DNA of 64,000 nucleotides, taken from Isurus oxyrinchus. Its lineage: Eukaryota. How positions within the stretch are numbered: the first letter of the stretch is position 1; each line of letters begins with the position of its first letter. Of the stretch, positions 21,000 to 55,425 are shown piece after piece. Where the stretch lies: NCBI GenBank assembly GCA_026770705.1, contig JANJGN010000062.1:1488001-1552000 (forward strand). The letters run 5' to 3'. Under the pieces are notes generated by a model. That model saw nothing but the letters and a program-made list of their open reading frames with translations. It had not been told where the DNA came from and searched no databases. Made by a program: the position numbers and the translations under genes.

Positions 21000-23900
21000 T
21001 GTCTGGCATAGGACCTCTATCTTGCAGAATCTGAGTACCAACTGTCAGGCATTTCTTCTACACCCCATCTGGACCATAACCACATCAAACGGTACAATCA
21101 AGTGGTAGTTTCCAGGCCTGCCACCGAACTCAAATGCAAGGAATGCCTTCCCACTACAGCCTCCAAACTCATGGTACCCCAACTCTGTACCACCGACCTT
21201 TCCCTACTTCATATAATCCTCTCAAAAAGGACTGTCCTATGATACCCATTTACTCCACCTTTGCCTACCTCGGTGAAAGTATTTCTTCATATTTGTCTAG
21301 ATTTTGCTTCCCATGATGCAGAAGTCTCCTAAACAGCTTCGTGATAACTCCGTCGCCCTCAAACTCATCATTAATTTCCAGTTCCTAATTGCCACACTTC
21401 ACAATGTACATCCTATCCCTCCAGTCCTGCATCTGCCACACTGGCACTTTGATGCTCTCAATTTCTTCAATGACCAGAGGCCCGAACAGTCCATATCCAC
21501 CCACGTCCATCGCAGCCGGGCTGAACTTTATCTCTCACTGAGAAAACAAACGTTAAATTGTTTTTACTTTCCTTTCATCAAATAAGAATCACAGAGTCAC
21601 ACAGCTAAAACATTGCATTGAGGAACATTCGGCCCATCGTGACTGCTTTGGCACTCTAGGCATTTTAATTTAGTGCAAATCTCCTGTCCATTCCCCGTAA
21701 ACCTTTTCGTTTGAGAATGTCCCTAATGGAAGGACGGTAGTGAAGGTAACGTCACACAGGATCAGAATTCAGCTGGCAAGATGGATACAGAATTGGGTTG
21801 GTCATAGAAGGCAGACTATAGCAGTGGAAGGGTGCTTATATGAATGGAGAACGGTGACTAGTGGTGCTCCAAAAGAATCGGTTCTGGGACCTTTTTCTTT
21901 TTGCAGTATACGAAAATGGTTTGAAGGAAACTGTAACTGGCCTAATTAGTAAGGTTGCGATGAGATTAAGTTTGGAGGAGTTGCAGATCGTGAAGAGGTT
22001 TGTCAAAGGATTCCACAGGATATAGATCTTTTGGAGACATGAGCGAAGAATTGGCAGATGGAGTTAGTCTGTGCAATTGTGAGGTCATGCATTGTGGAAG
22101 GAATGATACAAGTAGGAATTATAGAGCAAATGGCAGAAACCTTGAGTGCATCGACGGGCAGAGGGATGTGGTTATACTGGTCCACAGGTCACTGAAAGTG
22201 GCAACGCAGGTCCACAAGGTAGTTAGGAAGGCATATGCCATGCTTGGCTTCATTGGCAGAGGTATTGAGTGTTAAGGTTGGGTAGTCATGCTGCAGATGT
22301 ATAGAACCTTGGTTAGACCACACTTGGCATATTGCGTGCAATTCTGGTCGCCACATTACCAGATGGATACGGAGGCATTGGAGAAGCTGCATTGTAGGTT
22401 TACCAGGAAGTTGCTGGCCTGGACATAATTAACTATGAGATGAGCTTGTAGAAACTCGGATTGTTCTCACAAGAGCGATGGAAATTGAGGGGTGACTTGA
22501 TAGAAATTTATACAATTCTGATTGGCATGGACAAAGCAGATAGACAGAAGCGTTTTCCCAGGGTGGAAGATTCAATTACTAGGGCACATGGATTTAGGGT
22601 GAGAGGAGAATACCATAGAGGAAACGTGCGAAGCAAGGTTTCTTTACGGATAGGATAGTGAATGTCTGGAATGTACTGCCAGAGGAGCTGGTGGAAGCAG
22701 GCACGATAGTGGTGTTTAAGAGGCAGCTGGACAAATACACGAATAGGTTGGAAATAGAGAGATACAGAAACCAGAATTGCTAAATGTTTTACTTTGACAG
22801 GCAATATGATGGACGCAGGCTTGGAAGGCCGAAGTGCCTGTTCCTCTGTGGTGTTTTTCTTTGTTCTTTGTTCTTTGCGGTTTCTATTGAAATAAACATC
22901 CAATAACGTCTTGAACGCCTCGATTGAACCTGCCAAAGCAACACTTCCATGCTGTGCATACAAAACCCTAATTTTTCACTGTTTGAAAAAGCTTTTTGCT
23001 CACTTCAGATTTGCACTCATATAGGTGGGGTTATAGGTGGCAGCATGGACCCGAATTACATCTGACTTTTTCGGGGGTGGTCATGTTCTATGTTTCTAAA
23101 TAAACTCCTAATCAGTCCCAATCCCAGAATTGATTCTTTTTTCTGGAACATTGATGACAGTTTTGCTGCCACTTTATGCTTTCTTCTGGACCATGGGGAA
23201 AATAAAAACAATCAAATTTGCATGCAATTGCAGACCTTTCTCACCTCCACATCTTGCAACTCCGATTCTTTCCTTCCACGACTTTTCTGTCTCAATTGCT
23301 GGTGATCGGCTGTGTACAAATATTATAGACAAACCCACCGATTTCCATAGCTACCTCGGCTGTACGTACTCACATCCTGCTTTCCAATATCCAACACTCC
23401 TGCCTCAAACATATCTCATGATGCTAGATTTCACAATAAAAATCCCAAATTGACTTCCTTCTTCCCCTGCCAAGCAAGCTCCCACCTTTTGGCCCCTTGA
23501 CCATGTCCGACGCATATCCAGAATTTCTGCATTCATTATTTTCCCTCCCTTTCTGAAGCCATGTGGTTGCCTATGCCCTCCTTCTCCATCCCAGCAGCCT
23601 GCATCACATACACGAAATGTAGCATGAGGTCAGGAGCAAACTTATCATCCCTTCTCTAATCTGGCGTCATTCCAAAGGAACATTTCTCTCTGTAACCACT
23701 TGGATCAAACAACTAGCACCATTAAACCTTCATTGCCGTTCACCTGCATTCTCACTTGCAATAGCTGGAGGTGTAATACCTCGAAATTTACGTCCTACCT
23801 CTTTACCATTAAAGCCTCAAGAAATCCCTCCAGGTGAAGCCATGATTTACTTATACTTCCTTCAAAGTAGTCTACTATATTTGCTGCACAAAACGCTATG

Positions 23901-24620: not shown

Positions 24621-26299
24621 TTCAGCTGTTATTAAAATCGCAATATGATATGCTCTTCAATATTTATCCTGTTGACGTGATATAAGTTGACCATAAAACA
24701 AAATAACGTAACTGTTTTTCATGTGTGATAACAGTGGTTTGGTCGTATTTTGAAAGATGCTTTCTGAAGTTACGTTGATCGTATGATATCAGGAGTAGAT
24801 AGAATTGTCGCTCTGATGTAATACTTGCTCGGCAATGGTGAAGTGATGAAAACCTGAGGTGGACAAGTGAGCAGTATTTGAGGATTCGAAAGATTTTCGC
24901 CCATATTTTTTTTGTAACGGGTAGAGGCCAAAATGAAATAAGGCCACATGTAGGAAACAACTTCATTCAGAGAAAATCTTGTTAGAAGAGACAGTAGACC
25001 GAAGGAGAAGGTGGCAGTGGCGTAGATAGCTACTTTTCACTCTTACTGATGCAGCCTTCCTCCACAAGGAGGACTCCTCCCCATTCATGGATACACGCAG
25101 CCTCCTTCGGCACCACCCACACAGTTAAACATTAACAACACAAAGATGTCTCTCCACATAGATCTGCCACCTCTCCCACTCTTACACAGAAACAGCCACA
25201 GGCTGAGTTTCTTCACCAATAACAGACTCCGCATGCATGCAAATTCAGAGCAAGAATAGGTGATCAGACAACCTAAATCATCACTGATGTTATTGTGGAC
25301 TCTACTCCACATTTCACTTAACCTGATCGGCTTCGGCTCCCTTCTTAGTTATGTATGCATTTACATCTGCCTTAAAAAAAAATTGCACAGGCCCCGACGC
25401 CTCGTTTGGTTGGGCAAGAGAGATCGAAATGCTCATCAAGATCTGAGAGAAACATTCGTCACACTTGTGTCTTAAATCTGAGAATCCATGTTCTTTAACT
25501 GATCCACCAAGTTCTAGACTTGCCCAAGAGGACAGACGTCCATTCACCATTCACCCTGTCAAGTTCTGTCAGGATCTTATATGTGTAAGTCAAATCATCT
25601 CTCTTTCTTCGAAATTGGATCCTGCCCAAGACTGTTCAAACTTTCTACGTATGCTAACTTGCATTTCCCCATCCGCTCCAAAACAATTAACATATCAATG
25701 TTAGTTGCCTTCTTTTCAAAGTATGCAGTAATTGCAGAAAATTGGGTGTGCAAAACATAATTTAAAAGTTTGCCAAAAACAGAAACGCTTGAAGGGTTAC
25801 TTTGTTAAGACGATTGAGGTTAGTTTATTGAGAACCATGTGTATATTTTAAAGTGGATCCGAGGCAGAGAGGGCTGTTTTGTTCCAATAAATATGTCAAT
25901 CTGACAGACTTAGATGTTGAATCATACAGTCCTTCTGTTTTACAGGAAGAGTGATGAAGCTTAAGGGAAAAGACAGTCATGACAAACATGTGAGCAGCAA
26001 TACTTCAGATTCAGCTGTAGTGTTGTGCGCAGTGTTTAACAGAACACAATAAGAATGACATGAAGGTATTACAGAGGAAGCACAGACTTGGTTCAAAGTG
26101 GAGGAATTCAATTATCTGATTAGGTGTGTGAAATTTGATCTGTTCTCCTTGAAGAGGAGGTGATTAATTGGAGTTATGATATTGGTGTTCATAACAATGT
26201 GGATCCTGTGCATTCTGTACAGGGAGAAAGTGTTCTCCTTCGCTAAGTTTATGGACGCTGGGATTAAAGCAAAGGCGAGCACTTCTGATCTCCAACACA

Positions 26300-27142: not shown

Positions 27143-27969
27143 TCATTCGAATCGAATCTTTGCCCTTTTTGGATTAAGGTTGAATGGGCGTTTTACATCG
27201 TCCACCAACTCCTCTCTGAATTTAATCCGGGTAAGAATGTGAATACATGTGTTGGCGCAATTATTGTGACGCTGCAGCATTGCTGCTCTGATTTCTGTTA
27301 TATTAACAGTTTGTGGAAATTCAGATAATTGCTATAAACTAGGTGGAATGCCGTTAACAGAATTACATTGCCAGAAATTCTGAACATTAAAATGGTGGAC
27401 ATCCTTCGGCTCAACAGCTCTAGTTCCTAGCGATCCTCTTTCTTATTACAGCCCTGGAGACTTCATCGGATACTATTGGAAACCACAAGATGTCTGATCA
27501 TTGGGAGATTGAGAAGCAAAATCAGAAGAACATCAAATATACGGATGATACGGGTGAAGTAACAATATATTATCAAGTTTATTTATTGGTTCCCGGATAA
27601 AGTACCATGAGATCATTACAAAGCAGCCCACCACGCTCACTGTTCCGAAATCGACAGCTTCAGTTTTCTCGGTACAATACTTTGTTCTCAGATTTCCGCA
27701 ACAAATGGCCATGAATCGGTCAAAGTTGAAAGCGACTGTGAAACATATGGAAAGCGCTGTTGCTTCAAAGGACAAGGTAATAATGAGGTAGCGCACAGGA
27801 GTAATTTTCAGGAAGTAATCTAGGCAATAAAGCGCCCCTATCCATTGCAATATCGCTTCAGGTAGAACGACAGGGAGATCGGTCACAGCCTTTCCCAGCT
27901 GGTGCCCAGTGATACACTTGGGCAGAACGCATTTTCCTCGGGAAAGGATTGCAATCGCCGCCATGTTAA
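27143..27969 (-). pseudogene. Class A GPCR pseudogene, GPR139/GPR142-like family (main coding exon)
   Basis: After an AG acceptor at 27970-27971 reads (V)NMAAIAILSRGKC...FTVAFNFDRFMAICC...KYCTEKT (DRF motif). The ORF stops at 27533. TM7/helix-8-like MLQRHNNCANTCIHILTRIKFREEL lies further downstream. Family assignment is from recollected family motifs. Confidence 0.8.
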
Positions 27970-29739
27970 CTTGGAGAGGGGGAAAGATAAAGCATAGAAG
28001 TTATTGTTAAGATGTGGGGCCACAGCAGGAGGTGGCACAATCTGTGGTTGAAGTTAGTACTTTACTGGAGCATCATCCGATTCACGCTGTTTTTTTTTTG
28101 AACATTTGATTGGGTTTTATTTTTAAAACCAGCAATGATTCAGGAAATCTTGAAACAATTTGTATCAATTTTATCGATTCCACAGAAAGGACTGAGTGAC
28201 TCTGCAGTGCAGTGCCAGCCGAGAGGCGGAAGTCAGTTTACACAGGCGGAATCCAACGTCTGAAATTGTCATGTGGTCTGCATTCGAACGGGAGGGATTC
28301 CTTGTGACAACGTTTACTACAGCTGCTTCGTTCTACTGGTACATGCGAATCAATCAGTGTTTTGCCGAAACAGTCTTTAAAATAAAATAAATGAACTCAC
28401 ATCGAATTGAGTTCAAGGTTCTGGATACCATTGGGAGAGTAATTTGGAGGCCTAGACAATGAATCATATATTTAGGAAGACAGGGGCAATGTCATATCCG
28501 AGCTGGAAGGAAGGCTGGAGCTGATGGATTTGGCAGTTGGATAAACTGATTAAAATCAGAGTAGGATTAGATAAAAAGGGATATATTTCAGCAGAATAAT
28601 AGTGCAAAAATGTCTTTAACAGTTGAATTAGCACAAGAAAACATCATTACCTGTGCACATTTGTGTTATGGAACCAGTAAGCTGGGAACAAATCAAGTGT
28701 GATCAATTCCCTCAGCACATTTTCGAGCATTAAATTTAAACATGTTCTTGAAATCATGTTGTTTTTTCTACTGAATTGTCAGATGGTACTAAAATCACGA
28801 TAGTGAAGCTGTCAACTGACATCATGGAAATGAAAACATGACGCTATTATGCCTAGTCTGCAGTAAGGAAGGAAAATGAAGCTTCAATAAAAAACTCTCT
28901 TGAAGGCTTGACAGTTTTAACTCACACCGAGCAGATCCACCATTACTCTGCACTATATGTGGCACCATCGTATGTGCAACTTAAAATCAGTTTTGTCTCA
29001 ATAATTGTTCTGAGCAAGACAGCCGTCCCACCTTATGCATGATTCACACTGATGATAGCTTTACATTATTTTGTTCTCTCCAATGCTCTCCAATCTGTTT
29101 TCAACGATGATTTTGGCCATTACATCCTGCTTCTCCATTCTATTAGCCAGCCAGTTTTCAAACTTTAGTATTCACAATCTGTGCAGTTGTTCAGCCGCGG
29201 TGAGCAGTTTAACAATTTGAGCAACAATGCATCTCTCCAACTGTTTGTATCACGTACAATGCACAGAAAAAAAAATCATGGATCTTCCAAGTTGACTTCA
29301 CAAAAATATAAATAAAATAATTGTCTTGTACTTTTGTAGTAAATTATGCACGCCTTCCTTACGTTTTAGCTATTGACTGTCTACAATCATGCCTTTTAAC
29401 GAAGCTTTGCAATAACAAAGTCAACTTGAAGATCCTGCCCTCACATATTCCTTTATTTGACTTTTAGATCAATATCCCATTGAACAAAAACATGTTGCGA
29501 ATGAATACGTTTTTTTTTTTGCAATTTATGGTCTCTCTTTCCTAATGGGTAGTTTGCAACAAAAATATTAATTCTGTCCATTGATTGCACAATACTAGAT
29601 CTAAAATTGCCAGTTGTCGAGTTGGTTCTTCAAGATGCAAGTTCAGGAAACAATCTTACATGCACCCCAATATATATACCTACACAACATTAGTACTGAT
29701 TAGTATTTCCCAAATAATTGTACCTTGAACATCCTCATG

Positions 29740-31150
29740 ATTACTGATATAAGCCAGGGAAGAACAGTCCAGTGAGTCTCAGGTCAGTTATAGGGAAAAT
29801 TAGAAAAAATTCTGAAGGAGAGTCTCTCTCTCCACTTGGAAAGGCAAGTTTTGCTCAGTGATAGTCAGCATGACTTTGTCAGAGTGAGGTCATGCCTAAC
29901 AAGTTTGATTCAGTTTTTTGAGGAGGAGACCAGATGTGTAGATGATGGTGCAGTTGGCGTAGCTTAAATGGATTTCAGCAAAGCTTGTGACAAGGTCCCA
30001 CATTGGAGACTTATAAAGAATGCAAATGCACATGGGATTCAGGGTTATTTGATAAGGTGAATTCAAAATTGCTTAAAGTGAAGGAGGTAGAGCGTGATGA
30101 CAGAAGGATGCTTTAGTGGCTGGAAACCCGGTCCATCCAGTGGCGTACCAAAGGGATCTGTGCTCGGTCCACCATTTTTGTCAATCATATAAATGACATA
30201 TTTGACTATGCGGGGGTTATGATTAGTAATTTTGCGTATGACACAAAGATTCGCTGGCAAGTTAGCAGTGAGTTTCAGTGTCTTGTGGATCAGGAAGATA
30301 TAGATGGGAAGGTCAAGTGGGCAAATAAGAAACAGGTGGAATTTAACCATGGAAAGTGTGAGGTGATATATATTGGAAAGATGACTTTGTCAAGGAAGTA
30401 TTCAATGAACAGAATGTCACTTGGATGTTCTGAGGAACAAAGGAAACTTGGCGTGTGTGTCCATAGTTCCCTGGAGGCAGAGGGGCACGTTGGTGGGACT
30501 GTGAGAAAGGCTTATTGGAGACTTGCCTTTATAAAACAAGGCACAGATTAGAAAAGGAGGGAGGACATGTTGGAGCTTTATAGACCATTATTGAGACCAC
30601 AGCTGGAGTAATGTGTGCAACCCTACTCGCCACATGAAAGGAAGGATGTGTTTACACTGGAGATGGTGCAAAGGGGATTCACCAGGATGTTGCCTGGGAT
30701 GAAACATTTAAGCTCTGTAGAGAGTTTGAATAGATTTGGGTTGTTTTTGTTGGAGCTGAGAAGACTGAGGGACGACATGATCGAGGTTTACAGGATTATG
30801 AGGGACATGGGCAGGTTGGATAGAGAATAGATGTTCCCCATATTTGACCTCTCAAGGGGGCATACTTTAAGGTGAGGGATAGGAGGTTTAGGGGGGATGT
30901 GAGGAAAACTTTTTTTTTTACCAGAGGCTGGTAACGGTCTGTATTGCACTGTCTGGAAGGGTGGTGGTGGCATGTTGCCTCACATACTTTAAAAAATACA
31001 AGGATGAGCATTTGGCACGTCATAACATTTAAGGCTATGGGCCAAGTTCTGGGAAATGGAAATAGGTTGGTAGGTCTGGTTGTAATCTCGTGTCGTTGCA
31101 GACTCGATGGGCCGAATGGCCTGTTCTGCGCTGAGATGCTGTGATTCCGA
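29740..31150 (+). mobile_element. CR1 LINE 3' RT fragment (same subfamily as 1080-5030)
   Basis: GVPKGSVLGP, ISNFAYDTKI, KAYWRLAFIKQG, VQRGFTRMLPGM; same 3' tail as 4900-5025. Confidence 0.9.
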
Positions 31151-33169: not shown

Positions 33170-33880
33170 CGTAGGAGGCTAAAAATCCACTTGTAATCTT
33201 GGTGAATAATAATTAATAGGGATGAGGGAGAGATCGAGACTACCCATTCTGAGAAGAGACAGAAGTGGCTTTTCCAAGTATTGTGCTGCACTGGATTTGA
33301 ACGTAAACCTGAGGGATGGTGGTAGTGGGTGCCATGCCAGGCTGTCCTTAACAGAAGCTGAGGTGTTAGAAGGAATGGATTTCCAACTCAGTGATAGAGT
33401 TGTGGAGCGACTTAGTGTATTGGTGAGCGATGAACTTGCAGAAAGATTGGTTGTTCCGGCGTGGTCTGGAGAGGTAGACGGAATGGATGTCATAGTACAA
33501 AGAAAAGTACAGCACAGGAACATGTCCTTCCGGCTCCAAGCCTGCGTCGATCATATTGACCATCAACTAAAACATTTTGCACTATCCCTCTATTGCCGTC
33601 CTATTCATGTATTTGTCAAGCTGTGTTTTCAACACCACTATCGTTCTTGATCCTTTGGAGTTCGCTGCCACATGAATTAGTACAGGCCAAAACATTGCAT
33701 GTTTTAAAGGAAGACTTGATATAGCTCTTGGGGTGAAATGGTTCAAAGGATGTTGGAAAAAAGCTGGAGCAGGATATTGAGCTGGATGATCAGCAATGAT
33801 CATAATGAATGATGGAGCAGGGTCGAAGGGCCCAATGGCCTACCCCCTGCTCCAATTTCTATATTTCTATGTTCCTATGT
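33170..33880. mobile_element. Mosaic of old LINE fragments and CR1 3' ends in both orientations
   Basis: 33690-33880 is a CR1-type 3' end with ttctat(g/a)t repeats; 33490-33650 is an inverted 3' end. Confidence 0.6.
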
Positions 33881-33889
33881 TTCACATAA

Positions 33890-34400
33890 ACTCTCTCCCT
33901 ATCTCTCTCTCTCTCTCACACAAACACACATGTGCAAAGAAACACTCACTCACACAAACACACACAGAAATACACACACAGACACAACACGCACACACAC
34001 ACAAAAAAACACACAAACGCGCAAATGCGCAGACACACATATGAATACACATAGGCAAACAAAAAATGATTCACACCTGCTCACATAATTACTGTCACAA
34101 GCAGAGATACTCAAGCACACGGACAAAATCTCACAAGCACTCCCTGACACACAAACACACAGAAAAACACACGTGCACACACTAACAGCATTACACATAT
34201 ATCAGGTACATAAACACACGTGAGTTTCCACATTCGCAGAAATTTTAAGATAAACACCCGTTTTCACACACAGAAATATACAGGAATAAACATACACGTC
34301 TCTCCCTCTCTCTTACACACACACATTCATGAACACACAAATGAACAGACACACACATGCACACACAGGCACATACATACACATTATCTCACACACGCAG
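33890..34400. repeat. Degenerate (CA)n-rich low-complexity tract
   Basis: Interrupted CA/CT dinucleotide runs. Confidence 0.9.
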
Positions 34401-34859
34401 CCAATGACTCAGACAAGGACTTTCAGGCACCAGTATGCAGGATAATCCCACAATGCACATCACCATGTCTATACAATCCATTGGCTCCACGCGCACCTGT
34501 CCTCTCCGAGTCCCCCTTCCGGTGACCTCAGCAGCCCCAACTCCACATGCCGAGGAGGGTACCTCTTCCACATTTTAGGACCACGAAAGCAGGCTGGGTA
34601 CCTCCAGAGGCTGCCCGTCAAGGTAAACACAATCAACAGGCTGCGTCCACTTCTGATCTGCATTCTGGGGTTCAACAATACGTATGGGCAGAGTTTGGGA
34701 GTTTGGGAAATGGACTTGCAGAGCCTGGGCAAGTTTGTTAATCCCTTCTACTTCACTAGTATAAATTAACTCCCCAGAATGTGCCTTTCCTGTGTCTCCT
34801 TGTTATGATGAGCAGTGTTTGTGACACTCGGATATGAAATTTGATAATCTGTATATTTG

Positions 34860-36360
34860 CAGCAATACATCCCCCCTCCTTTACTCGAATCTTCCAGCTA
34901 CGAAGGCCGACACACCATCCGCCTCCCCCATTGCACTAGCATGCTTACCCTCAATGGCAGGTGCACAAGGATCCCCATACCTCTTTGCCCACTCCCCTCA
35001 CTCAATTCAAAGCCATTCAGATAACGATCTGCCCTCCCATCCCTGCGACCAGAGTGGACAAACTCACATCCGTCCCCAGCACACTGCTTCTGGCATGCAG
35101 CAGCCCACCCACTCAACCTGTCCAAATCACACCGAAGCATCTCCGCGTCCTCCACACAGCTCACCCTCCCAACCAGAACCATGCCATCTGCAAATTCGGA
35201 GACACCACACCCAGCTCCCTCATCCAAACCATCGGCACACACCCTGAATAATTTGGATGTCAGCAACGACCCCCGCAGCACTGCTCTATTCACTGCCTGC
35301 CATTCGGTAAAAGACCTGCTCATGACCGCTCCCTAATTCTTGCCTGCCAACCAGTCTTCTGTCCGTCTCTGACTCTGTTCGATTCTGCCACTGCTTCCCA
35401 AGGGCTCACCTACCAAATATTCCAAATTCAACTCCTGAATTCTCCACACCACCGTTGTCAGCCCGACTGGTCAACAACTCCCTGCCTTCTCTCTAACTCC
35501 CCTTCCAAATTTTGCTGTTCCATTAGTTAAACTCCAACCCGCAGGAACTTTACCCGACTCTACAGAATCTCGGGATATGACCACCAGTGCATCCACCACT
35601 TAAAGGGCGACCTCCCCAAGTACACTGGGACGTAGAAAAACATGCCCCAGGGTTCCACTGGCCCTCAATCCCATCAATCCCTCCAACACCATTTTTGTGC
35701 CCATACTGGTCCCTTACAGCTCCTCCCTTACACTCTAGACCCTGCTCTCCAACATTTCTGGCACGTCATCTACGTCCTCCTTTGTGAAGTCAGACCAAAA
35801 GTATCCATCTGGTTGGTCAGCCACCCCTTCGTTCTCAATCATAAATCACCTGTTTCTGACTCTAAGAGACCCGCACATGTATCCACCAACCTTCCCTCCT
35901 CACAATCTATAGAAGCGTTAACAGTCAGTTGATATTTTCCCGCAAGTCTACTCGCACACTCCACCCTCGCCACTTAATCAATCCCCTGGTCTTCCCCTGA
36001 CGAACTCTAAAGTGCTCCCAATCCTCATGTCTTTCCCTTTTTCCCCTCCAACTTGTCTGCCGCTTCCTTGGATCCAACACTCTCCCCAATTTCCCCTGTA
36101 GGCCATGGATCAGACACCATTGCTATCTCCCCCTTGCGCCAGACATGAACAAACAAGTGTTGAAGCCACAAAGCACCCCCCAAATATCCGTCACTGCCCA
36201 TCCACCGTCATCCCTCCAAACAACGTTTCCAAATCCAGCATAGGCAGGCCGCACCCCAAACCATCGCAGTCTTCTCCATTATGTTTCAGGACCCTTGTTT
36301 CAGAACAAAATACGTCACTCTCTGTCCTCATGAAAAACTCAACCATATCATAGTCACTTA
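34860..36360 (-). mobile_element. CR1 LINE ORF2 fragment with A-to-G hypermutation
   Basis: ORF 34898-35323 aligns by eye to the CR1 RT, but reads VCADGLDEG / SEFADG where CR1 has IYINDLDEG / SKFADD. Confidence 0.85.
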
Positions 36361-36364
36361 ACCT

Positions 36365-37130
36365 CACTGGTGAGGGATGAAAGTGTAGAAGGACTGGATG
36401 CCCGCGGATGGAGATGTGTAGAGGTACCGGATGCCAGGGGTGAGTGAGGGGGCCTGGACAAGCTGGATGTCTGGCTGAGTAATGGGAATGCAGTCTTACC
36501 ATGTGCCAGGCTGAGGGATGAATGTGTAGAGGGAAAATGTTTGCTGTTGAGTGTCCGATGCGCAGGATAACTGCATGCCCTGTGATGGATGCAGGTTAGG
36601 AGTGACTGCCAGTCATATTGCGGGATGGAGGTGAAGAGAGATTGCTTTTCCTGGTGAAGATGAAGGGGTAGAGGTTATGAATACCTTGTTGGTAGACGAA
36701 GGTGGAGAGGGATTGAATTTCGTCGTGAGGCATGGAAAGGTGGAAAGATTGTGTGCCCTAGAGAGGAATGTAGATGTGGATGCGGCATTTAGGTGAAGAG
36801 GAACAAGATATCCATTGAGGGAATGTTATGCAGAGGGACTACAAGATGTGGCGACTGATGGAGTTAAAGAAGGACTGAATGTCATTGTGAGGGATGTTGG
36901 CATAGTGAAACTGGATGTCTTCTTGAACAACATATATTCAGAGGGACCAATTGTATTGCTGAGGTATGTGTGTGTAGAAGAACTGGATGCCCTGCTGATG
37001 AATGGATTTGCAGGGGGACTGAATGTTGTCGTGATGCATGAGGCTTAGAGGGATTGGGAAACCTGGTGAAGATAGAGTTCTATGGGGATTGGCTGTTCTG
37101 CTGAGGGAAGGATGCATCACGTTTTTATTC
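36365..37130. repeat. Degenerate ~36-bp minisatellite
   Basis: Recurring ctg(g/a)atg at 36874, 36911, 36983 and 37019; unit resembles tgagggatgaatgtgtagagggactggatgccc. Confidence 0.7.
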
Positions 37131-39889: not shown

Positions 39890-41230
39890 ATTTTATCAAT
39901 GACTAAAGCCAACCCGATCCCAATCAGTCTACTCTCCATCATCAGTAAAATCAGAAGCGACTCATGCTTAGCAATCTCCTGCTCAGTGTCGATCAGTATG
40001 GGTTCATTATTATTTTCGGCCTTGGCTCAAACATGGACAACAAACCTGAACTACCAAGGTGAGGGGTCAGTGACTGCCTTTGACATCAGGGCGTTATGTG
40101 ACCGCAGCGCGGCTTCAAGTAGCCCGAGTGAAACTGGAGTCTTTGGGATCCAAGGGAATGAAAAAAAAAACTTGCCTTTGCTTGGAGTAACATATACCAT
40201 ACAGGAAAATGGCTGTGGCTTTTGGAGGCCATGGATCTCAGTTGTAGGGCACCACTGCAGGAGTTCCTCGGATTAGTGCCCTCGGCCCAGTCATCTTCAG
40301 CTGCTTCATGAATGACCTTCCTTTCATCAGAAGGTGAGAATAGGGAATGTTCGCTGTTGATTGCACCGTGATCATCACCGTTCACAACAGCTCAGGTTCT
40401 GAAATTGTCCTTGACTAAATGCAGCACAATTTTGAAAATATCCACTCTTGTGCTGACATGTGACAAGTAACATTCACTCCACAAAGGTGCCAGACAATTA
40501 CCATCTCCCATAAGGGAGAATCTAACCTTGACATTTAATGGCATGGTCATCTCTGAATCCCCCGCTATCAAAATCGTGGTGCTTACAATTGACCATCAAT
40601 TGAACTGGAATAGCCAGGTAAACACTTTGACTACAAGAGCATGTCAGATTCTCGGAACCCTGAGGTGAGCAGTTCAACTCCTGACTCCACAGAACCTGTA
40701 CATAGTCGACAAGGCACAAGTCAGGAGCCTAATGGAAAACTCTTCACTTGAGTGGACGATTGCACGACTAACAACACCCAAGAAGCTCGTCAACATACGG
40801 AACTAGGAACTCTGCTTGATTGCTATCCCTTCCCACAAACATTCACTCCCATCACATCGAAGAACAGTAGCATCAATGTGCATCATCTGTAGGAGGTACT
40901 GCAGAATCTCACTAACTCCCCTGTGGCAGCACCATCTGAGCGCCGGACCAGGGCCATTTAGTGGGACACGGGAATAGCATACATGAGATCACCGACATTT
41001 GGAATGTCCCTCCAAGCCACAAGCCTTTCTGACTTGGAAATTTATTGCCTTTAATTCAGTGTCACTGGCTCAGAATGCTGGAAACCTGTGTTCAACAGCT
41101 TTGCGCGGGTACTTACAATAGAGGGGCTACAAAGCTACAAGAATGCAGCTCACCACCACCTTTGCAAAGACAATTGTGTTCGGGCAATAAATTCTGGCCA
41201 AGCCAGTGTCGCCCATATCCAACAAATTCA
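39890..41230 (+). mobile_element. Non-LTR retrotransposon RT/3' fragment (lineage B, CR1/L2 group)
   Basis: PISLLSIISK; gagttcctcggattagtgccctcggcccagtcatcttcagctgcttcatgaatgaccttc (GVPxxSxLGP...FSCFMNDLP); KAQVRSLME. Confidence 0.82.
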
Positions 41231-46399: not shown

Positions 46400-47470
46400 C
46401 AGGGGGAAATTCTTCACTGCGTGAAGTCAGAGTGAGCATAGAACAAGGGAATTGTGGTTGTTGGATGTCAATCATCCATCAGTAGTTGGACATTAATGCA
46501 GGAGCTCCTCAGCATAGCGTGCTAGGACCAACGATCTTCATGTGTTTCATCAATGACCATGTCTTCATCTGAAGGTCATCAGTGAAGATTTCCACTGATG
46601 ATGGCACAATGTTTATTACCGGTCCCAAATCCTCAGCTACTGCAGCAGGCCATGCCCACATGCTGTCAGACATGGACCATATCCAGGCCTGACATTCATA
46701 GTGGAGAGTAAAATTCGTGCCTCACTAGTGCCAGGAAATGACGATCTACAACAAGGTGCAATCCAACTGTCAGCCTTTGACATTCAGTGGCATTGCCATC
46801 ACTGATTCCCCCACTAACAACATCCCAGGCATTTCCATTGACCAGAAACTGAACTGGGCTTGTGATATGAATGATGTGGTGACAAAAGCAGGTAAGAGAC
46901 AAGAAACCCTTCTGAGGAACTCAACACCAGACTAGGCAAATCCTTTCCATCGTCTGCAAGGGACAATCAGGAGTGTTCCTGAATATTATCCACTTGCCTG
47001 TTTGAGAGCAGCTACAACAAAATTCTAGAGGTTTGCCGCCATCCAGAATAAAGCTTTCTGCTTTTTTGGCACCATATCCACAACCAATCACTCCATTCAT
47101 CATCCGCTTACAGTGGCAGCAGTGTGTACTGTGTATAAGATGCACTTGAAGAATCCAGTAAGGCTACTGAGGTAGGACCTTCCAAAACCACATAAACAAC
47201 CAAGGAGAATGACAAGCGAAGCAGAGATATGGGAAAACCACTTACTGGAAGTCACCCTCCAAGCCTGTCACTATTTTTATTTAGATATTTGTCGCCGTTC
47301 TGACGCAGTCGCTGGGTCAAATCCTTAAACTCCCTCCATAAAAGTACGGTGGTGTACCTATACAACATGGACTGCAACGGTTCAAGAAGTCATCTCATCA
47401 CGACTTTCTCAAGGGCAATATTGGATGACCAATGAATGCAGGACTGCCAGAGAGTCTCAAATATCATTCA
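46400..47470 (+). mobile_element. Non-LTR retrotransposon RT/3' fragment (lineage B), intronic
   Basis: GAPQHSVLGPTIFMCFINDH; IPGISIDQKLNW; colinear with 40230-41230. Confidence 0.82.
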
Positions 47471-47881: not shown

Positions 47882-48029
47882 CTATGGGTTATGAAACAAA
47901 AAATATAGAACTTTAACTTAGAAAGTCATCTCTTTTTCATCATTTACAAATTCATGAGACGTATTCAGCAAACAATCACCAACCGCCAATCTCCGGGCCC
48001 CTACTCGCACCATTCTGCAATACCCTTAC

Positions 48030-48347
48030 CGGAACAAATCACACTGGCGTCCTCCTTGTGATCACAGTCAGTTTGAGCAGACGCTAAGGAAGGACAATCA
48101 GAGAGAAAGGATTCACTTCCGGTACACCTCACCTCATCAAACCACATGTCACCTTCACCCTGTCCAAAAGTGGCCCCTGCTGTGGCCAATAGAGCAGAGC
48201 CACAATGCAGCTGTCTGCAGACAACATTGGCATCGGCCATATCCCAAGAGTCATCACACACTGTGCTCCAGTTGTTTTTGCACATTATCTCCACTTGCCC
48301 GGAGCAGTTGGTGTTACCTCCAATCAGGCGCAAACCTACATCTGAAT
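48030..48347 (-). CDS. SRCR domain 7 exon (group B)
   Basis: 318 nt, AG...gtaagg: LRLIGGNTNCSGQVEIMCKNNWSTVCDDSWDMADANVVCRQLHCG...CDHKEDASVICS. Confidence 0.95.
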
Positions 48348-48435
48348 CTGTCAAAGAGAATCAATCACTATTATTTCTGCACAAAAATACAGGTAGACAA
48401 CTCAGATAATTGATCTATTAAAGTGGAGCAATCAC

Positions 48436-48492
48436 CTGATTCTCGACCACAATCCTTTTCACTTTTGGGCTGGCCCTTCGTTATCTTTCTTC
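48436..48492 (-). CDS. Interdomain linker exon
   Basis: 57 nt, ctcaacag acceptor and gtgatt donor, phase 1/1, open: (G)RKITKGQPKSEKDCGRES. Flanking introns are 83 and 88 nt. Confidence 0.75.
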
Positions 48493-48575
48493 CTGTTGAG
48501 GAAATAAACGTGCTGACTCATTTGGACATCAATGAATGAAATAACACTCGCACATTGGAAGGTTTGTTTTGTTAC

Positions 48576-48893
48576 CTGAACATGAAACGCCTGCATCCTC
48601 TTTGTGATTACAGTTGTGTTGTCCCCACTGGTCTGTCTGACACTGCCAGATGGTCGACTCGTGTGAAATACATTCTATTTCATCGAGCCAAATAGGTCCG
48701 GATCCTTCTCCGAATGACTGAGTGGTATAGTCTATAGAAACCAGGGGGCCACACTGTAACTGTTTACAGATCACCTCAGCATCATGGCGATCCAGTGCTT
48801 CCGAACACACTGTTCCCCAGATCCCATTGTAGAACACTTCCGCCCGCCCCTCACAGCGATGCTTTCCATTCACCAGCCGCAGCGCTTTGTGTT
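48576..48893 (-). CDS. SRCR domain 6 exon
   Basis: 318 nt: [26 protein letters not shown]...[12 protein letters not shown]; canonical splice sites. Confidence 0.95.
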
Positions 48894-49883
48894 CTATCAA
48901 TGAAAGAAGAAATCTCCAGATGTTTCCAGTGATAAAATGAATCATGTCAACAGTGCCCCCTCCACCCAAGTTGTGCCAGAGGTGTTCACTGAATAGAGAT
49001 AATTATTCCAGAAATGTAACAGTGATACATGTACAGTCCAATTATATAATCAATGATAATCAACACAGATTTCAAAAGAGTGAACTATAGATCTTCCAAT
49101 TCATTGAATTACTTGAGGAAGTTTCAGAAAGATTATGTGGAGATAATAATGTCCATGTAATCCACATGGATTTTGAAAACAATAACTTTCAAAAAGTTTT
49201 CAAACAGCTGCATTAAGGCTGAGAACAGGGAAATGAAATTGCCGGCACAATATTAAAGGAAGAGCAAACAAGCAACAACGCAGGATTTCATATATAATAG
49301 CAGAAGTTGGGGCGTGCTGTACACATGGATTATTGCTGGGGCTCACATCTGTTTCAGATTAACATATTACATTTGGTATTTGGAATTGAAGTAAATGTTC
49401 AAAATGCACTACGGTTTGCAGTTAATACCAAGACAGGTTCCATTAACTGCAGGAAGACGGTCGGAGACAGCAGGATAGGCTTGTCAATACTGAAATTATT
49501 TCAATGCTGATTAGAATAAAGTCGTGATTTTTTCGGACAAAGAAACACAAGAGCCAAACAAATTGGGATTTAGGAGATTTTCTGTTTCGCTTTCTATTAC
49601 CCAGATAGAAGGAGAATGTGGAACATGGAACATGTACATTTAGTGGGGGCGAATTGTGGTGATGCCTTGAATGTGACGTTTGATAAAGGCACGAGGGGAA
49701 AATACAGAGTGCAATACAGCTCAGACCACATGAAATGATGTAAGATTATGAGCAGAATAAGCAGCAGTCAGACGCATTGAGCAGAATGACCAGTTGATGT
49801 ACAGTTTCTGGGCCATTCAGTAAAATTCCATCTGTCTGAATCTTCTCGTATGAAGGAAATAAGTGCATTTACGTCACCCTTAC

Positions 49884-50198
49884 CTGAGCACATGATCTTC
49901 ACATCTTCTTTATGAGAACAGTCGTGGGCACCCCAATGTTCAGAAGGACATTGCCAGAGATACGATTCCTCCCCTGAACACTCCAAGCCTTCCAACCAAA
50001 CTGGACCTGAGCCTGCTCCGCAAGAGGCAGGAAGTGTCACGTCCAAAGCCTTTCCGCAATGCAGCTGTTTGCAAACGACGTCAGCGTCTGTCAGATCCCA
50101 GGAATCATCACAAACTGAGCCCCAGGTCCCGTTGTAGTAAATCTCCACTCGGCCTGCACATGGGCTTCCACCGTCTGACAGCCTTAACTGTTTGTGTT
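49884..50198 (-). CDS. SRCR domain 5 exon
   Basis: 315 nt: [45 protein letters not shown]...[12 protein letters not shown]; canonical splice sites. Confidence 0.95.
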
Positions 50199-51174
50199 CT
50201 GATCCAAAGAAGACAATCTTTATTACGAGGATTCGATTACGCATTTATGTCATAACACAAATTGAAACTATTGGATATTATCCAGCAAAAGTAATAAAAC
50301 AAATCACTTGACTATGACAGGTAACTGTTTCTATAGTTGAGACCATGTATCTCTAATTACTTGGAAATTTATAATGTGGAGTGCACAAAGATTTCAAATA
50401 TTCCTACACCTGATTCCATCGATATTTTGGCTTGCAGTTCACGTATTGTGTGCTCAGTGCTGTGTGCCCTGTTTCAACCTCAGCTGAACTTTTTTGTATT
50501 CATCGTTCCACCTAAACTACTTATGAACATCAATTGTACACAACTTTTTCTCTCCCCTGCACGTATCTCGAAAACTTATTTCAGTCGATTTCTGATTATC
50601 TCGCTTTTTTATTTTGATTATATTGAAAAAAAATGCTGCAAATCCTCAGGGGATCTGGCAGCTTCAATGGAAACAAGAAACCAAGTGACTTTGAAGAATG
50701 ACATTTCATAGAAGCTCAGCCTTCTGCTGCTGAAAGACATGTAAGTGCATCGTTTTTTCATGGATTGAATAATGCAGAAATCCCATGAGCGGCCTGTCGC
50801 TCTGACGAGTATGTGAACGGCAATTCTATGAAAACGCTGTTAAATTAACACACGATTTCGCACCAAGCTGTAAGGCCCCTCCCAACACCACACCGCCCCG
50901 CCCCTCACAACTCCCCCCGCCCCGCACTAACAGAAGTGCTGTCAGAATTCCCTGTTTGAGAGAAAATTTTGAATTCCGTCGTTAATAAATGCGCAGCAAA
51001 AATGCATGTCCTGCTTGTTGATCAGTTCTGTGCGTGCCCACTCTCCCCACGTTAGCCCTCCAATGCTAAGCAGTTAGGTTAAAAGAACTCGAGGAACAAG
51101 TGGCGTATATTCACACCTCCCTCCTTATTAGATATTTCTATTTATGTTCCGGTAAAATTGAACTATTTATTCAC

Positions 51175-51489
51175 CTGAACACAGAACCCCGACGCCGACA
51201 CTTTCATTGAGAGACGAATTCATTGCAAATGAGCTGCAGTTGCGGAGATGCAGTTCATTTCCTCCACACTGGACATCATTCACCCACACAGGCCCTTCAC
51301 TCTCTCCATACATTGCAGAGGTATAAGCGAAAAGTGCGACACCACATCCTAGTTGCTTGCAGACCACGGTAGCATCATGGAGGTCCCAGAGGCTGTCCTG
51401 TACTCTGCCCCAGCGACCGTTGTGGTAAATTTCCACCCGACCATCACAGCGGCTTCCCCCATTCGTCAATCTCAGTGACCAACTTTCAT
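51175..51489 (-). CDS. SRCR domain 4 exon (6-Cys variant)
   Basis: 315 nt: LRLTNGGSRCDGRVEIYHNGRWGRVQDSLW...VGVLCS; lacks Cys2 and Cys7. Confidence 0.93.
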
Positions 51490-52699
51490 CTAGAAGATGA
51501 GAGCAAGGGGTAACATTCAAACAAATCATGCACATTTGACTCAATATAACCGGGGCAATGATTATTCACGTAAATGTTCTGACCCTAGTGCCAAGGTGAG
51601 GCAGATCAGTGGGACCCTGCTGAGCACGCTGATGCGGGAGGGTGAGCAGTCAGCATTCGTTCTCCGTTAGTGGAACAATTTCAGAGGTAGGAAGAGGGGT
51701 GTAGTCCTGCAGATGATTTTTAAGGATGTTGCAAACAATCTAGTAAATTGCCATCAACGGAGTAATATCCTGATAATATTGAAATATCCCAGCACAACGT
51801 ACGAGCGATAGAACTAATGAACATGTCGCAAGATAAACGGTGCACGAGAGTCCTAATGAAGCTCATGTGACTTTGTGACCTGTTCTCATGCACTCATAGA
51901 CTCAGTTCTGTGAAGAAAGGACCAATGGGTGTTTTCATGTGTTTCACATGAAAAAAAATCCGGCGGCAATGTCCGTCTGGTTTATTGGTTGGACAGTACA
52001 GAATGAATTTGTCAGGGATTTGGGAACGGGCAGATATGGTTAGAGAGAAAAACCAAACTGCACAGAAAAGTAGAAAAGAAAGATTGCAATAACGGAGGAA
52101 ATAATGTGGTGTTATTCGTGATAAGCACAACCGGGGTTGTATAATGGCCTCAATTATATTTACTTTTCAGGTGTGTGAACGTACATTGCAATAAATGATG
52201 TTCGTGACGTGCAGGGTCTGAAAATGACTGAGGAGCAATAATGGAAAATTGACTTAGACAAGTGCAGGACTATGCAAAAACTCAAAGGCTCCCTGGGTGA
52301 TTAAAGAGATGGGGATTAAGGTGAAGCAGAAATAAATATATATGGATAGGATATTGAATTTGGATAATGCAAGCGAGATCCAAGATGAATGTACAATATC
52401 CAGACCATATAAGAGACTCCCACTAACATAAAACGGGATCTTACAGTCTTATATAGGCACAAAACAGACACCAAAAAGGAAATCGGCATATAAAGGCTGA
52501 TGTTATGGCTCAGCTGCTGAGTCAGCATTTTGAGTATTTTTTTTGCTAAGGAAGAAAATGCTCCTCAATGCTGGACAAAGAATAGGCAGATGAAATAAAA
52601 TGGAGTGTTTAGATATTTATAAAGAGGACGAATTGGCTTGGGCAACTGATGTTGAATTTGACGGGACACATCGATTGGATGACGTGTATTCGGGGAGAA

Positions 52700-53420
52700 T
52701 GACCAATGTCAGAGCCGAAATCGCCAGATAATGGTCATAATGTTCCCATCCTTCTTCAATGCCGATAAATGAAGTTTCCAAATATTACACCCTTGTTCAA
52801 GAAATGGTGTTAGGATAAATGCAGTAAATTCGGACCAGTAAGTTTAATATTGGCTTTGGGAAAGCTTTGTTTCCTTGGAAAATATGCATTGGGGCAGAAG
52901 TTAGAGCCAGTTGAAAAATGTAGTTTTGGTAAGAGACAATCGCATTGCACGGACCTGCTAGAGTAATTTAATGAGGTTAGTGAGACTGTTAATGAGGCTA
53001 ATGGAGTGGATGTGGCTTTGATGGACTTTGAAATGACCTTTGGCAAAGGGTCACGATAGCTGCTTGGCAGAAATGTTTGGCGCCTGTGGAATAAAAAAAA
53101 ATGAGTGATTGGAGATGGAATTGCTCTTTGAAAGGGAACAGGACGTCGTGTTCAACGTTTCTTCTTTTCCAGACCAGAGGAACAGGACATTCCACCTGGC
53201 TAGAAACCCTGATTTTCCGTTAATACATGATATCTACCGAGACTTGGTTGTAAGGGGAACAATTTCATTTTTTTTCTTCAAAGTATACAGAATTTTTTTA
53301 AGTGTTGTAAAATGTTGAAAGATTAAAATTAAATCAGACACCGACAAGCTGATGAACGGGCCGGAAAGTTATAGACGAAATTCGGTTGAGGGAAGCATTG
53401 GTTGGCCCATTTTTGTTGGA
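52700..53420 (+). mobile_element. Old CR1 RT fragment
   Basis: ttacacccttgttcaagaaa (ITPLFKK), ggaccagtaagtttaa (PVSL), gtggatgtggctttgatggacttt (VDVALMDF). Confidence 0.65.
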
Positions 53421-53479
53421 AGTAAAAAAAAAACCTATTAAAGTAGATAAGTATTTTTTTCAAAACTACCGGATCCCTC

Positions 53480-53860
53480 AACGCAAGTTACAGTCATTTA
53501 TTTGCATTGTGTAATGTCAGCACTGTTGCAATTTAAGGAACGCCGCAGCCATAATGGGCGCAGTAAAATCGCACAAAAATCGTGTGATAATGACCAGATG
53601 AGCTATATTGTCTGATGTTGATCAAGGGATAACTTTGGATAGACTCCCTAGTTTCCCTCAAAGTAGACCCATGGTAAATATTTTATTAACCTCCACTGAT
53701 GCAGATATGGCATCGAGTTAAACCTCTTACCTGGAACAAGCAAAATTATAGAGAACAGCATTCCCACAGCACTGCACTTCATTCACAGACTTGACTGCTC
53801 TGCTAAATAACTTGAGTCATTCTTGAAACAGGCCTTGTGCTTTAGAAGTGAGTGTTTTTA
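53480..53860 (-). mobile_element. Decayed Deu-type SINE
   Basis: Similar in layout to 43480-43870. Confidence 0.45.
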
Positions 53861-54396
53861 AGAGAGGTAAGGGCAAACGAAGGACTAGGAGAAGGAACAA
53901 TAAGGAACTGGATCATTTCTGAATGAGTTTCAGAAGCTGACGAACCTCGGGTGCATTTGTAAGAAACATTGTACTTGACAGTGCAGGTTGTGAAAAGGCT
54001 GCTAAAGTTTGGAGTTCTTTGGTGTATAACTAAGGCACAGAGTACACTGAAGGGAAGATGTTATGATTCATTTCGGCCTCATGTGGAATAATGCTTCCAA
54101 TTCTGGGCTAAAAACGTTAGGGAGGGTATGAAGGCATTAGAAATGATGCAGGAATGCTTCATAAGATCATTTCGGTGATGACAAACGTATTTTTTCTACA
54201 TTGTTTGAGTGAGCTACGAATATTCGACTTGGAGAGGGAATGCTAAAACAACCTTCGGGTTCTGGACATTACGGCACAGAAAAATTGTTGCCATTGGCGG
54301 AAGGATCAAGAATGATCAGTACAGATTCATGGTGATGGACAAATTGGAAATGGTGACATAAGGATGCTAGTTTTGCATGTTGCGATTAATTACGTT

Positions 54397-55425
54397 CTGC
54401 AATGCACTGCCTGAGAATGTGGTGGACGAGGATATGCAATGCACTGACTGAAATTGTAGTGAATGATGAAATGCAAAGCACTGTCTGAGAAAATGCTAGC
54501 TTAAGATCTGCAATGCAATGTCTTAGATTGTGATGGATGAGGATCTGTAATGCATTGACAGAGAATGTGGGTGATGAGGACCTGGGATGCAATGTACCAG
54601 AATATGCTGGATGGCAATCCGCAATACACTGTCTGAGAATGTGACGGATGACTGTCTACAATGCACTGGCTGAGAATGGGGTAGGTGAGGATCTGCTTCA
54701 AGCTATCTGACATGCACATTCTGAGATCGTGGCGGGGGGGGGGGGGGGGGGGTGAGGATCTGAAACACACGGTCTGAGATTGTGGGGGATGTGGATCTGC
54801 AATGCACTGCTTGAGAATGTGGTGGATTTGGATCTGCAATCCACTGCCAGAGAATGTGAGGGAATAAAGATTTGCAATGCACTGTCTGAGAATGTTAGTG
54901 ATGAGGGTCTGGAATGCACATGTATGAGAATGTGCTGGATGACGATCTGCAATGCTCTTTCAGATAATTTGGTGAATGAGGACATGGAATGCACCTTCTG
55001 ACAAGGAGGTGGATAAAGATCTGAAATATGCTGTCTGAGATTGTGGTGGATGTCGACCTGCAATGCACTTTCTGAAAATGTGGCGTATGTGGATCTTCAC
55101 TGCATTTTCTGAAAATGTGAGTGACGAGGATCTGGAATGCACTGTCTGAGAATGTGCTGGATGACGATCTACATTCCACTGTCTAAGATTGTGGTATTTG
55201 ATGATCTGCATTGTACTGTTGGAGAATGTGGATGATGAGGGTCTGCAATGCACTGACTGAGAAAGCGAAGGATGAGGATATGAAATCCACTCTCTGAAAA
55301 TGATGGTGATGAGGATCTGCAATTCATTGTTGGAGAATATGGTGCTTGAAGATATGAAAAGCATCGTCTAAGAATGTGGCGGCGAGGATCTGAAATGCAC
55401 TGCCTGAAGATGTGGTGGATGAATA
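54397..55425. repeat. 37-bp degenerate minisatellite (about 28 units) inside a CR1 3' fragment (about 53950-55600)
   Basis: Unit about gcaatgcactgtctgagaatgtggtggatgaggatct; starts at 54399, 54436 and 54473. Confidence 0.92.

What the first reader, a model, noticed from the sequence alone, without database searches (positions are those of the whole stretch)
34860..36360. CR1 copy with dense, strand-biased A-to-G hypermutation (ADAR-like scar)
Seen: the RT segment reads RVCADGLDEGAGCGVSEFADG...LRCDLDRLSGW...DGCE...RRDGRAD where CR1 RTs typically read TIYINDLDEGTKCNISKFADD...LQCDLDKLSEW...DKCE...KNRKAD. That consensus is from my recollection; the conserved I-N-D and F-A-D-D-type motifs are also visible in the window's other copies near 4050-4110 and 30185-30250. 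The changes I>V, Y>C, N>D, D>G, T>A, K>G/E/R, Q>R and E>G are all A-to-G on the element sense strand, making the + strand conspicuously C-rich (gacaccacacccagctcc). Inference: A-to-I hyper-editing of the LINE RNA before reverse transcription. Alternatives are local GC-biased gene conversion (a few sense T-to-C changes exist) or a strand-asymmetric DNA process. The adjacent C-rich 33890-34560 may belong to the same event.
Basis: partly seen in the sequence, partly recalled or inferred. Interest (0 to 1): 0.72.

Follow-up and report, generated by a model that had tools for sequence, protein, structure and literature searches.

The report
RNA-editing scar fixed in fish genome
A 1.5-kb piece of an old retrotransposon in a shark- or ray-like genome has had nearly half of its A bases changed to G on one strand only, in the sequence pattern of the RNA-editing enzyme ADAR, which suggests that an edited RNA was copied back into the germline DNA and inherited ever since.

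Summary
Confirmed. 34845-36360 (minus strand) is a CR1-type ORF2 fragment nearest to cartilaginous-fish elements. At bases fixed by conserved residues, A>G is 57/139 against T>C 9/101, G>A 13/132 and C>T 7/51; three other CR1 copies in the window give A>G 28/423. The rate depends on the 5' neighbour in ADAR's order (T 19/31, A 28/55, C 11/35, G 11/54), is even along the fragment and implies about 45% of A edited. Independent runs hold the sequence, and a second species label shares it. New: the fragment is the 5' part of a 2.9-kb block (33492-36366) that splits one 36-bp minisatellite array at a unit boundary and ends in the tail of a different, unedited CR1. Best reading: ADAR hyper-edited one arm of a double-stranded transcript that was then retro-copied into the germline (ADAR-then-reverse-transcription about 0.85; passenger route about 0.5). 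Precedent exists in cultured cells (PMC11702581); I found no paper on an inherited LINE example. This scan noted similar scars in two other genomes (an L1, a proviral LTR; unchecked). No dsRNA partner or source locus was found; no 3' G preference.

The parts
34845..36360 (-). A>G-hypermutated CR1-type ORF2 fragment (clade A; end of the endonuclease region to the RT domain), no 5' end, no 3' end, 63-codon internal deletion at 35362
33492..36366 (-). whole inserted block, 2875 bases, with no plus-strand minisatellite unit inside; candidate single retrocopy of a chimeric transcript
   Evidence: single origin is inferred
33493..33644 (-). 3' end and tail of a clade-B CR1 at the left junction, unedited (A>G 3/45 against the 3' end of the copy at 22600-22900); candidate priming end
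33650..33884 (+). 3' end of a clade-A CR1 in the opposite orientation, unedited on either strand (A>G 2/22, T>C 3/31 against L094)
33890..34420 (.). decayed (CT)n/(AC)n simple repeat; editing not testable
34500..34839 (.). part of another high-copy repeat of unknown family, cut at about 34839 where the CR1 fragment ends
   Evidence: depth, loose ends at 34560, 34784, 34839; limits approximate
33348..33491 (+). left half of a degenerate 36-bp minisatellite array: four in-phase units, the last ending at 33491
36367..37100 (+). right half of the same array, first unit starting at 36367

Best explanation
A germline transcript from another locus carried an already decayed CR1 fragment that was paired over at least 1.5 kb with an inverted copy or an antisense RNA. 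ADAR deaminated about 45% of the adenosines of that arm and left the unpaired parts alone. The transcript ended in the 3' tail of a second CR1 family, whose reverse transcriptase copied it, reading inosine as G, into a 36-bp minisatellite array; copying stopped inside the edited arm, so the partner arm is absent. The block then decayed neutrally, was inherited by at least two species labels and was probably duplicated with its flanks. Shown: spectrum, strand bias, 5' context, evenness, two unedited neighbours, the split array, sharing. Inferred: ADAR as the enzyme, the duplex, reverse transcription, one event for the whole block. The core (ADAR on RNA, then reverse transcription) I put at about 0.85; the number given is for the core plus this passenger route.
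For: A>G 57/139 against T>C 9/101 and controls 28/423; A>T 7 and A>C 1 only. 5' neighbour T 19/31, A 28/55, C 11/35, G 11/54, chi-square p=4e-4, G against the rest p=7e-4 (60% threshold; 11 sites with an unclear neighbour left out); at the 80% threshold T 16/22, A 19/40, C 9/27, G 9/36, p=0.003. This is the published ADAR order U>A>C>G (PMC3113232); control copies show no 5' G depletion against the DNA references (28/93, p=0.68). Even over ten bins (p=0.61), initial fraction 0.44-0.46, close to the 'nearly 50%' reported for hyper-edited retroviruses (PMC12925331). A model of the 36-bp unit trained only on 18 right-flank units scores its best three-unit chain outside the training flank, on either strand of the window, at 33384 (58.6; next 33.4); the left units end at 33491, the right ones begin at 36367, and the next unit into the block scores about -12 on each side. 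The left junction is a CR1 3' tail. Precedent: 3 of 235 L1-made pseudogene insertions carried clustered ADAR-type changes limited to inverted Alus (PMC11702581). Elephant-shark brain RNA is heavily hyper-edited, and CR1 is an edited LINE in chicken (PMC5625713).
Against: No inverted clade-A partner covering the fragment lies in the window and no source locus could be sought (no genome). No 3' G preference: 3' G 8/18, A 32/69, T 23/50, C 4/23, p=0.08; G against the rest p=0.81. With strictly determined neighbours only, 5' G depletion is p=0.057 (80% threshold) and p=0.082 (closest references), significant only at the 60% threshold (p=0.0014). The true master sequence is not in hand: references are proteins and two DNA pieces 62% identical; controls are another clade, with 5 reference proteins against 16. 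The target-site duplication is at most 3 bases. A split array does not prove one event, and a plain local alignment of the two flanks was only borderline (86.5; shuffles mean 67.3, maximum 91). In cultured cells no editing of L1 RNA was found (PMC5224506).
Confidence: 0.5

Rival explanations
1. Same chemistry, other route: a clade-A CR1 RNA was hyper-edited in a duplex with an antisense RNA and inserted by its own 3' end with help in trans; later insertions and deletions removed that end and piled up the other repeats in the block.
For: Same spectrum and context. The fragment has suffered at least one large deletion. Repeats are dense in the window.
Against: The left junction is a clade-B tail, not a clade-A tail (scores 114 against 38), it lies exactly at the array boundary, and no array unit remains inside the block; several precise events are needed.
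Confidence: 0.3
2. Polymerase error without ADAR: a burst of misincorporation by the reverse transcriptase (unbalanced dNTPs) or by polymerase eta, whose hot spot is also A after A or T (recalled, no call).
For: 5' A/T against G/C contrast p=6e-5 fits that hot spot as well; no 3' G preference.
Against: A>G:A>T:A>C is 57:7:1, no other class is raised above controls, and about 45% of A over 1.5 kb is far above polymerase error rates as I recall them; neighbours in the same block are not hit.
Confidence: 0.1
3. Rewriting in place: the fragment was resident and unedited, and an ADAR-edited transcript of this locus was reverse-transcribed and replaced the DNA.
For: The fragment lies on the same strand as the nearby SRCR gene; it would explain the lack of its own 3' end.
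Against: No partner arm nearby: the nearest inverted copy (29750-31059) is clade B, 23% identical as protein and covers only the last third of the fragment. All relatives laid at 80% likeness or more in a second species label resemble the edited form, though an unedited orthologue would fall below that threshold.
Confidence: 0.05
4. Slow DNA-level bias: GC-biased gene conversion, transcription-linked asymmetry, or a naturally G-rich CR1 subfamily.
For: G+C of the region is 0.49-0.54 against about 0.42 in most of the window.
Against: T>C 9/101, A>C 1/139 and T>G 2/101 are not raised; a same-strand CR1 end 1.2 kb away has A>G 3/45; 18 listed of the 30 differences to the X19 orthologue (35581-36091) are 10 transversions, 3 T>C, 2 C>T, 2 G>A, 1 A>G, so no bias is running now; invariant residues are destroyed.
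Confidence: 0.03
5. Sequencing or assembly artefact.
For: None found.
Against: Contigs of four runs under three organism labels carry the sequence at about 94-100% likeness in their best pieces.
Confidence: 0.01

Closest known systems
ADAR-edited processed-pseudogene insertions made by L1 in cultured cells (PMC11702581, passages)
   Same: Clustered one-class changes limited to a repeat inside a retro-inserted transcript, attributed to ADAR acting on inverted repeats.
   Different: There: new insertions in cultured cells, Alu arms, L1 enzyme, 3 of 235. Here: inherited, old, shared by two species labels, a LINE arm of 1.5 kb at about 45%, CR1 machinery; partner arm absent.
A-to-G hypermutated retroviruses (Rous-associated virus, avian leukosis virus; review PMC12925331, passages)
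   Same: ADAR-type edits near 50% of A, recorded in DNA through reverse transcription.
   Different: Exogenous retroviruses and short U3 or inverted-repeat tracts; here a non-LTR element in a host germline.
APOBEC G-to-A editing of genomic retroelements (PMC4866542; PMC3880073; passages)
   Same: One-event, strand-biased hypermutation fossilised in a retroelement copy.
   Different: Other enzyme, substrate (cDNA) and change (G>A); G>A is not raised here. The first screen covered LTR elements and filtered for G-to-A; the second found G-to-A in lizard L1 but not CR1.
ADAR hyper-edited RNA clusters in repeats (PMC5625713; PMC3113232; passages)
   Same: Dense A>G, 5' G depleted, order U>A>C>G, in repeat RNA.
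   Different: Those are RNA only. The 3' G preference of mammals and reptiles is not seen here.
CR1-clade LINEs of cartilaginous fish (nearest named hits: Callorhinchus, Rhincodon, Hypanus RT proteins; the label CR1 is recalled, the tools say only reverse transcriptase)
   Same: ORF2 homology over 494 codons; groups with these proteins in the tree.
   Different: Dead fragment with no 3' end; long branch (1.13), so its exact place is unsure.

Membership tests
CR1-clade LINE | ORF2 reverse transcriptase closest to CR1-type RTs | tested here: met
   Best hit E 3e-36 to a Callorhinchus RT; lies in a 95/98 group of six with fish-type RTs; P0154 has PF00078. The copy itself has no Pfam hit. Family name recalled.
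CR1-clade LINE | Endonuclease domain upstream of RT | tested here: inconclusive
   Only its last residues are present: alignment starts at residue 228 of P0277, a protein with PF14529/PF03372.
CR1-clade LINE | Own 3' UTR and tail, as an insertion primed from its own end needs | tested here: not met
   Fragment stops at residue 796 of 958 and abuts another repeat. It is CR1-derived sequence, not shown to be an insertion in its own right.
ADAR hyper-editing product | A>G only, one strand | tested here: met
ADAR hyper-editing product | 5' neighbour order U>A>C>G with G depleted | tested here: met
   (p 4e-4 and 0.003); weaker with strictly determined neighbours (p 0.0014-0.082)
ADAR hyper-editing product | 3' G preference (weak for ADAR1, absent in some animal groups) | tested here: inconclusive
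   3' G 8/18 against the rest, p=0.81; 3' C low at 4/23
ADAR hyper-editing product | Long double-stranded partner | tested here: inconclusive
   None in the window; the source locus cannot be searched
ADAR hyper-editing product | Edits confined to one tract, neighbours unedited | tested here: met
   Clade-B end A>G 3/45; clade-A end 2/22 and 3/31; short tracts and different references
ADAR hyper-editing product | Inosine in RNA, dependence on ADAR | not testable with these tools
   Past event; no RNA holder listed
Retrocopy made by target-primed reverse transcription | LINE 3' tail at one junction | tested here: met
   Clade-B tail ends at 33493, next to the array boundary at 33491
Retrocopy made by target-primed reverse transcription | Target-site duplication or empty site | tested here: inconclusive
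   Array continues in phase across the block; three bases are the same at both junctions, which chance can give; no empty allele seen
Retrocopy made by target-primed reverse transcription | Source locus with the same order of pieces | not testable with these tools
   No genome held
APOBEC-edited retroelement | G>A excess on the sense strand | tested here: not met
   G>A 13/132 against controls 93/611

The most novel reading that the evidence does not exclude
The CR1 fragment was resident and unedited, and an ADAR-hyper-edited transcript of the locus overwrote 1.5 kb of germline DNA in place (RNA-templated rewriting). Nothing here excludes it, because an unedited orthologue would have been too distant for the read laying to show.
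Probability: 0.05. Interest if true: 0.9.

Novelty: new variant of a known kind. Interest (0 to 1): 0.62.

Why it matters
It is direct sequence evidence that A-to-I editing, usually counted as a non-heritable RNA change, can be written into a vertebrate germline and last across speciation. It is the ADAR counterpart of APOBEC-edited retroelements; the genome screens I read looked for G-to-A, and such copies drop out of ordinary similarity searches (no Pfam hit; no hit in the word-indexed protein search). If such fossils are common they make three things testable: whether ADAR meets LINE-containing dsRNA in germ cells, what its sequence preference was in an old fish lineage, and how often CR1 enzymes copy host transcripts that merely end in a CR1 tail. 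The locus itself is probably functionless.

Tried and rejected
No whole genome is held, so no genome screen, subfamily consensus or source-locus search. No RNA holder listed. The window's other CR1 copies do not align to the fragment as DNA. The word-indexed protein search with the copy found nothing. Viral contigs gave no relative. The metagenome scan gave 80 distant CR1-like loci, 36-62% identical to P0154, from 36 of 64 parts scanned; only L045 aligned to the copy, over 109 bases, so they were not used. Of 13 genome-contig loci only the Aeromonas cavernicola assembly held fish-type DNA. The local alignment of L096 ran across the internal deletion; redid it on homologous blocks only. Twin-priming inversion was rejected because the pieces lie in the wrong order. 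The minus-strand CR1 piece at 25444-25620 was read but is too decayed and far to link; not counted. The across-junction score was not used, because its model included the junction unit; one search left that unit out. By eye only, loose-end consensus pieces show no T>C at about 9 T of the abutting repeat; not run as a test. Rfam: no match. Ten paper searches gave no report of an inherited ADAR-edited LINE; the library lacks most subscription papers, and Carmi 2011 was not held. PMC6015446 and PMC5199112 (passage searches) had nothing on it. Figure S8 of PMC11702581, which shows the edited insertions, was not seen.

Full report
What is there. An exhaustive protein search with it found 1371 proteins at E 0.001 or better; the best named ones are RT proteins of Callorhinchus milii and Rhincodon typus, and follow-up searches added closer unnamed relatives (P0154, P0158, P0173) and Hypanus, Mobula and Scyliorhinus proteins. 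The host is therefore probably a cartilaginous fish (inference). I call the family CR1 from memory; the tools label it only reverse transcriptase. A frameshift-aware alignment covers 494 codons, 36358 to 34845, residues 228-796 of a 958-residue relative, with a 63-codon deletion at 35362 and 7 stops. A tree of the RT part (32 rows) puts the copy on a long branch among these fish proteins (clade A) and the window's other three copies in a separate 100/99 group (clade B).

The spectrum. Without the genome I counted changes only at bases fixed by conserved amino acids. At the 80% threshold, 423 bases: A>G 57/139, A>T 7, A>C 1, T>C 9/101, G>A 13/132, C>T 7/51; A>G against T>C p=1.4e-8. With only the six closest references, unanimous: A>G 52/121, T>C 9/82. 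The three clade-B copies give A>G 28/423 (p=1e-19 against the copy), and the other transitions do not differ. Two near-intact clade-A DNA pieces, found in a bacterial assembly where they are probably contamination (L094, L096), give A>G 3/133 in the same pipeline, so the method does not create the signal. Aligned directly to them the copy shows A>G 117/306, G>A 46/296, T>C 36/240. The excess is even over ten bins (p=0.61) and, corrected for later decay, corresponds to 44-46% of A changed. Other changes affect about a fifth of non-A bases, as in the controls, so the copy is old as well as edited.

The context. Using determined neighbours plus neighbours read from the copy and the two DNA pieces, the A>G rate by 5' base is T 19/31, A 28/55, C 11/35, G 11/54 (p=4e-4; 11 unclear sites left out) and, at the stricter threshold, T 16/22, A 19/40, C 9/27, G 9/36 (p=0.003). 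Human ADAR1 and ADAR2 prefer 5' U>A>C>G (PMC3113232, passages and Table 3), and 5' G depletion is shared by all animals screened (PMC5625713, passages). Against this reading: with strictly determined neighbours G depletion is p=0.057, 0.082 and 0.0014 at three settings, and there is no 3' G preference (G 8/18, A 32/69, T 23/50, C 4/23). The 5' C rate may be lowered by CpG decay after the change (inference); the 5' G rate cannot be.

Real, old, probably duplicated. Contigs of run X1 cover 34800-36846 with 22 other letters and 8 gaps, of X5 (another sample, same label) 35124-36854 with 47, of X13 (organism C) short pieces at 97-100%, of X19 (organism B) 35581-36091 with 30. The 18 listed of those 30 are mostly transversions with no bias, so the burst is older than the split and has stopped. 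The locus contigs have depth 260 (X1) and 315 (X19) against 23-37 and 30-34 for other long or diverged pieces, flanks included; this hints at roughly 7-10 near-identical copies of the whole segment, but contig depth is a poor measure. X19 also holds pieces about 10% diverged from the edited sequence, which may be an older duplicate or the source.

The surroundings change the story. The fragment has no 3' end, yet insertion by a LINE enzyme starts there. Both outer flanks carry a degenerate 36-bp repeat. A model trained only on 18 right-flank units finds in-phase units at 33348, 33384, 33420 and 33456-33491, and at 36367; the chain at 33384 is the best in the window outside the training flank (58.6 against 33.4), and no unit lies inside (best 6.3). 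So 33492-36366 splits one array exactly at a unit boundary; the phase match alone has a chance of about 1 in 12 to 1 in 36. On the minus strand the block reads: edited CR1-A fragment, part of another repeat, TG-rich tract, inverted CR1-A 3' end, CR1-B 3' end with its tail at the left junction. The two CR1 ends are unedited (A>G 3/45; 2/22 and T>C 3/31). LINEs of the stringent type recognise their own 3' end and can move other RNAs that carry it (PMC3747384, passages). The simplest reading is one retrocopy of a read-through transcript ending in a CR1-B tail, cut short inside the edited arm. Nested insertions with deletions remain possible; the duplication at the junctions is at most three bases.

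Mechanism and odds. ADAR on RNA followed by reverse transcription: about 0.85 in all (passenger 0.5, own insertion 0.3, rewriting in place 0.05). Editing of the cDNA strand would show as sense T>C and is not seen. Polymerase error 0.1; DNA-level bias 0.03; artefact 0.01.

What is known. L1 can insert ADAR-edited mRNAs in cultured cells: 3 of 235 pseudogene insertions had clustered changes limited to inverted Alus (PMC11702581, passages). Hyper-edited retroviruses are old knowledge (PMC12925331, passages). Genome screens of retroelements looked for APOBEC G-to-A and found other clusters negligible in LTR elements (PMC4866542, passages; PMC3880073, passages). ADAR1 restricts L1 without detectable editing of its RNA (PMC5224506, passages). 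Ten searches found no inherited ADAR-edited LINE; subscription papers are mostly missing, so absence from print is not shown. Two unchecked notes of this scan describe like scars in other genomes; none matches this sequence.

Verdict. A real, statistically strong, ADAR-patterned germline fossil; a new variant of a known kind. One locus, probably without function, with the duplex and the source not found. Interest 0.62.

Noticed in passing
window 48001-62864 (-): Multi-SRCR gene: seven SRCR-like exon frames seen, two confirmed as PF00530. The edited block lies 12 kb downstream on the same strand.
   Followed up: partly
window 33179-33491 and 36367-37100 (-): The 36-bp array reads as Ser/Thr/Pro-rich 12-residue repeats in minus-strand open frames on both sides of the block; it may be a decayed mucin-like exon of the SRCR gene that the block interrupted. 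Some 35-bp spacings break the frame.
   Followed up: no
window 34671-36846: Contig depth 7-10 times that of other long contigs in two organism labels, flanks included: probably a multi-copy, homogenised segment.
   Followed up: partly
L081, L094, L096 (G001): Fish-type CR1 DNA in the Aeromonas cavernicola assembly; its product P0011 is filed as a bacterial hypothetical protein. Probably contamination. Twelve other prokaryote records hold more distant CR1-like pieces (L082-L093).
   Followed up: partly
L094:1-102: A CR1 3' UTR and tail joined directly to the middle of an ORF2.
   Followed up: no
window 34500-34839: High-copy repeat of unknown family, cut where the CR1 fragment ends; no Rfam match.
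   Followed up: partly
window 54396-55422: 37-bp tandem array, 27.9 copies, 65% matches, weakly like the 36-bp array, between SRCR exons.
   Followed up: no
window 27533-28000 (-): Open frame that recalls a decayed G-protein-coupled receptor (from memory); no Pfam hit.
   Followed up: no
window 9150-11860 and 58818-61535: Two copies of a 2.7-kb repeat at about 68% identity, with further duplicated stretches near 12078/62746 and 7273/57101; may be decayed SRCR-region duplicates or a mobile element.
   Followed up: no
window 40134-40526, 46492-46734, 49028-49438, 52772-53047: Further decayed RT fragments of more distant LINEs.
   Followed up: no
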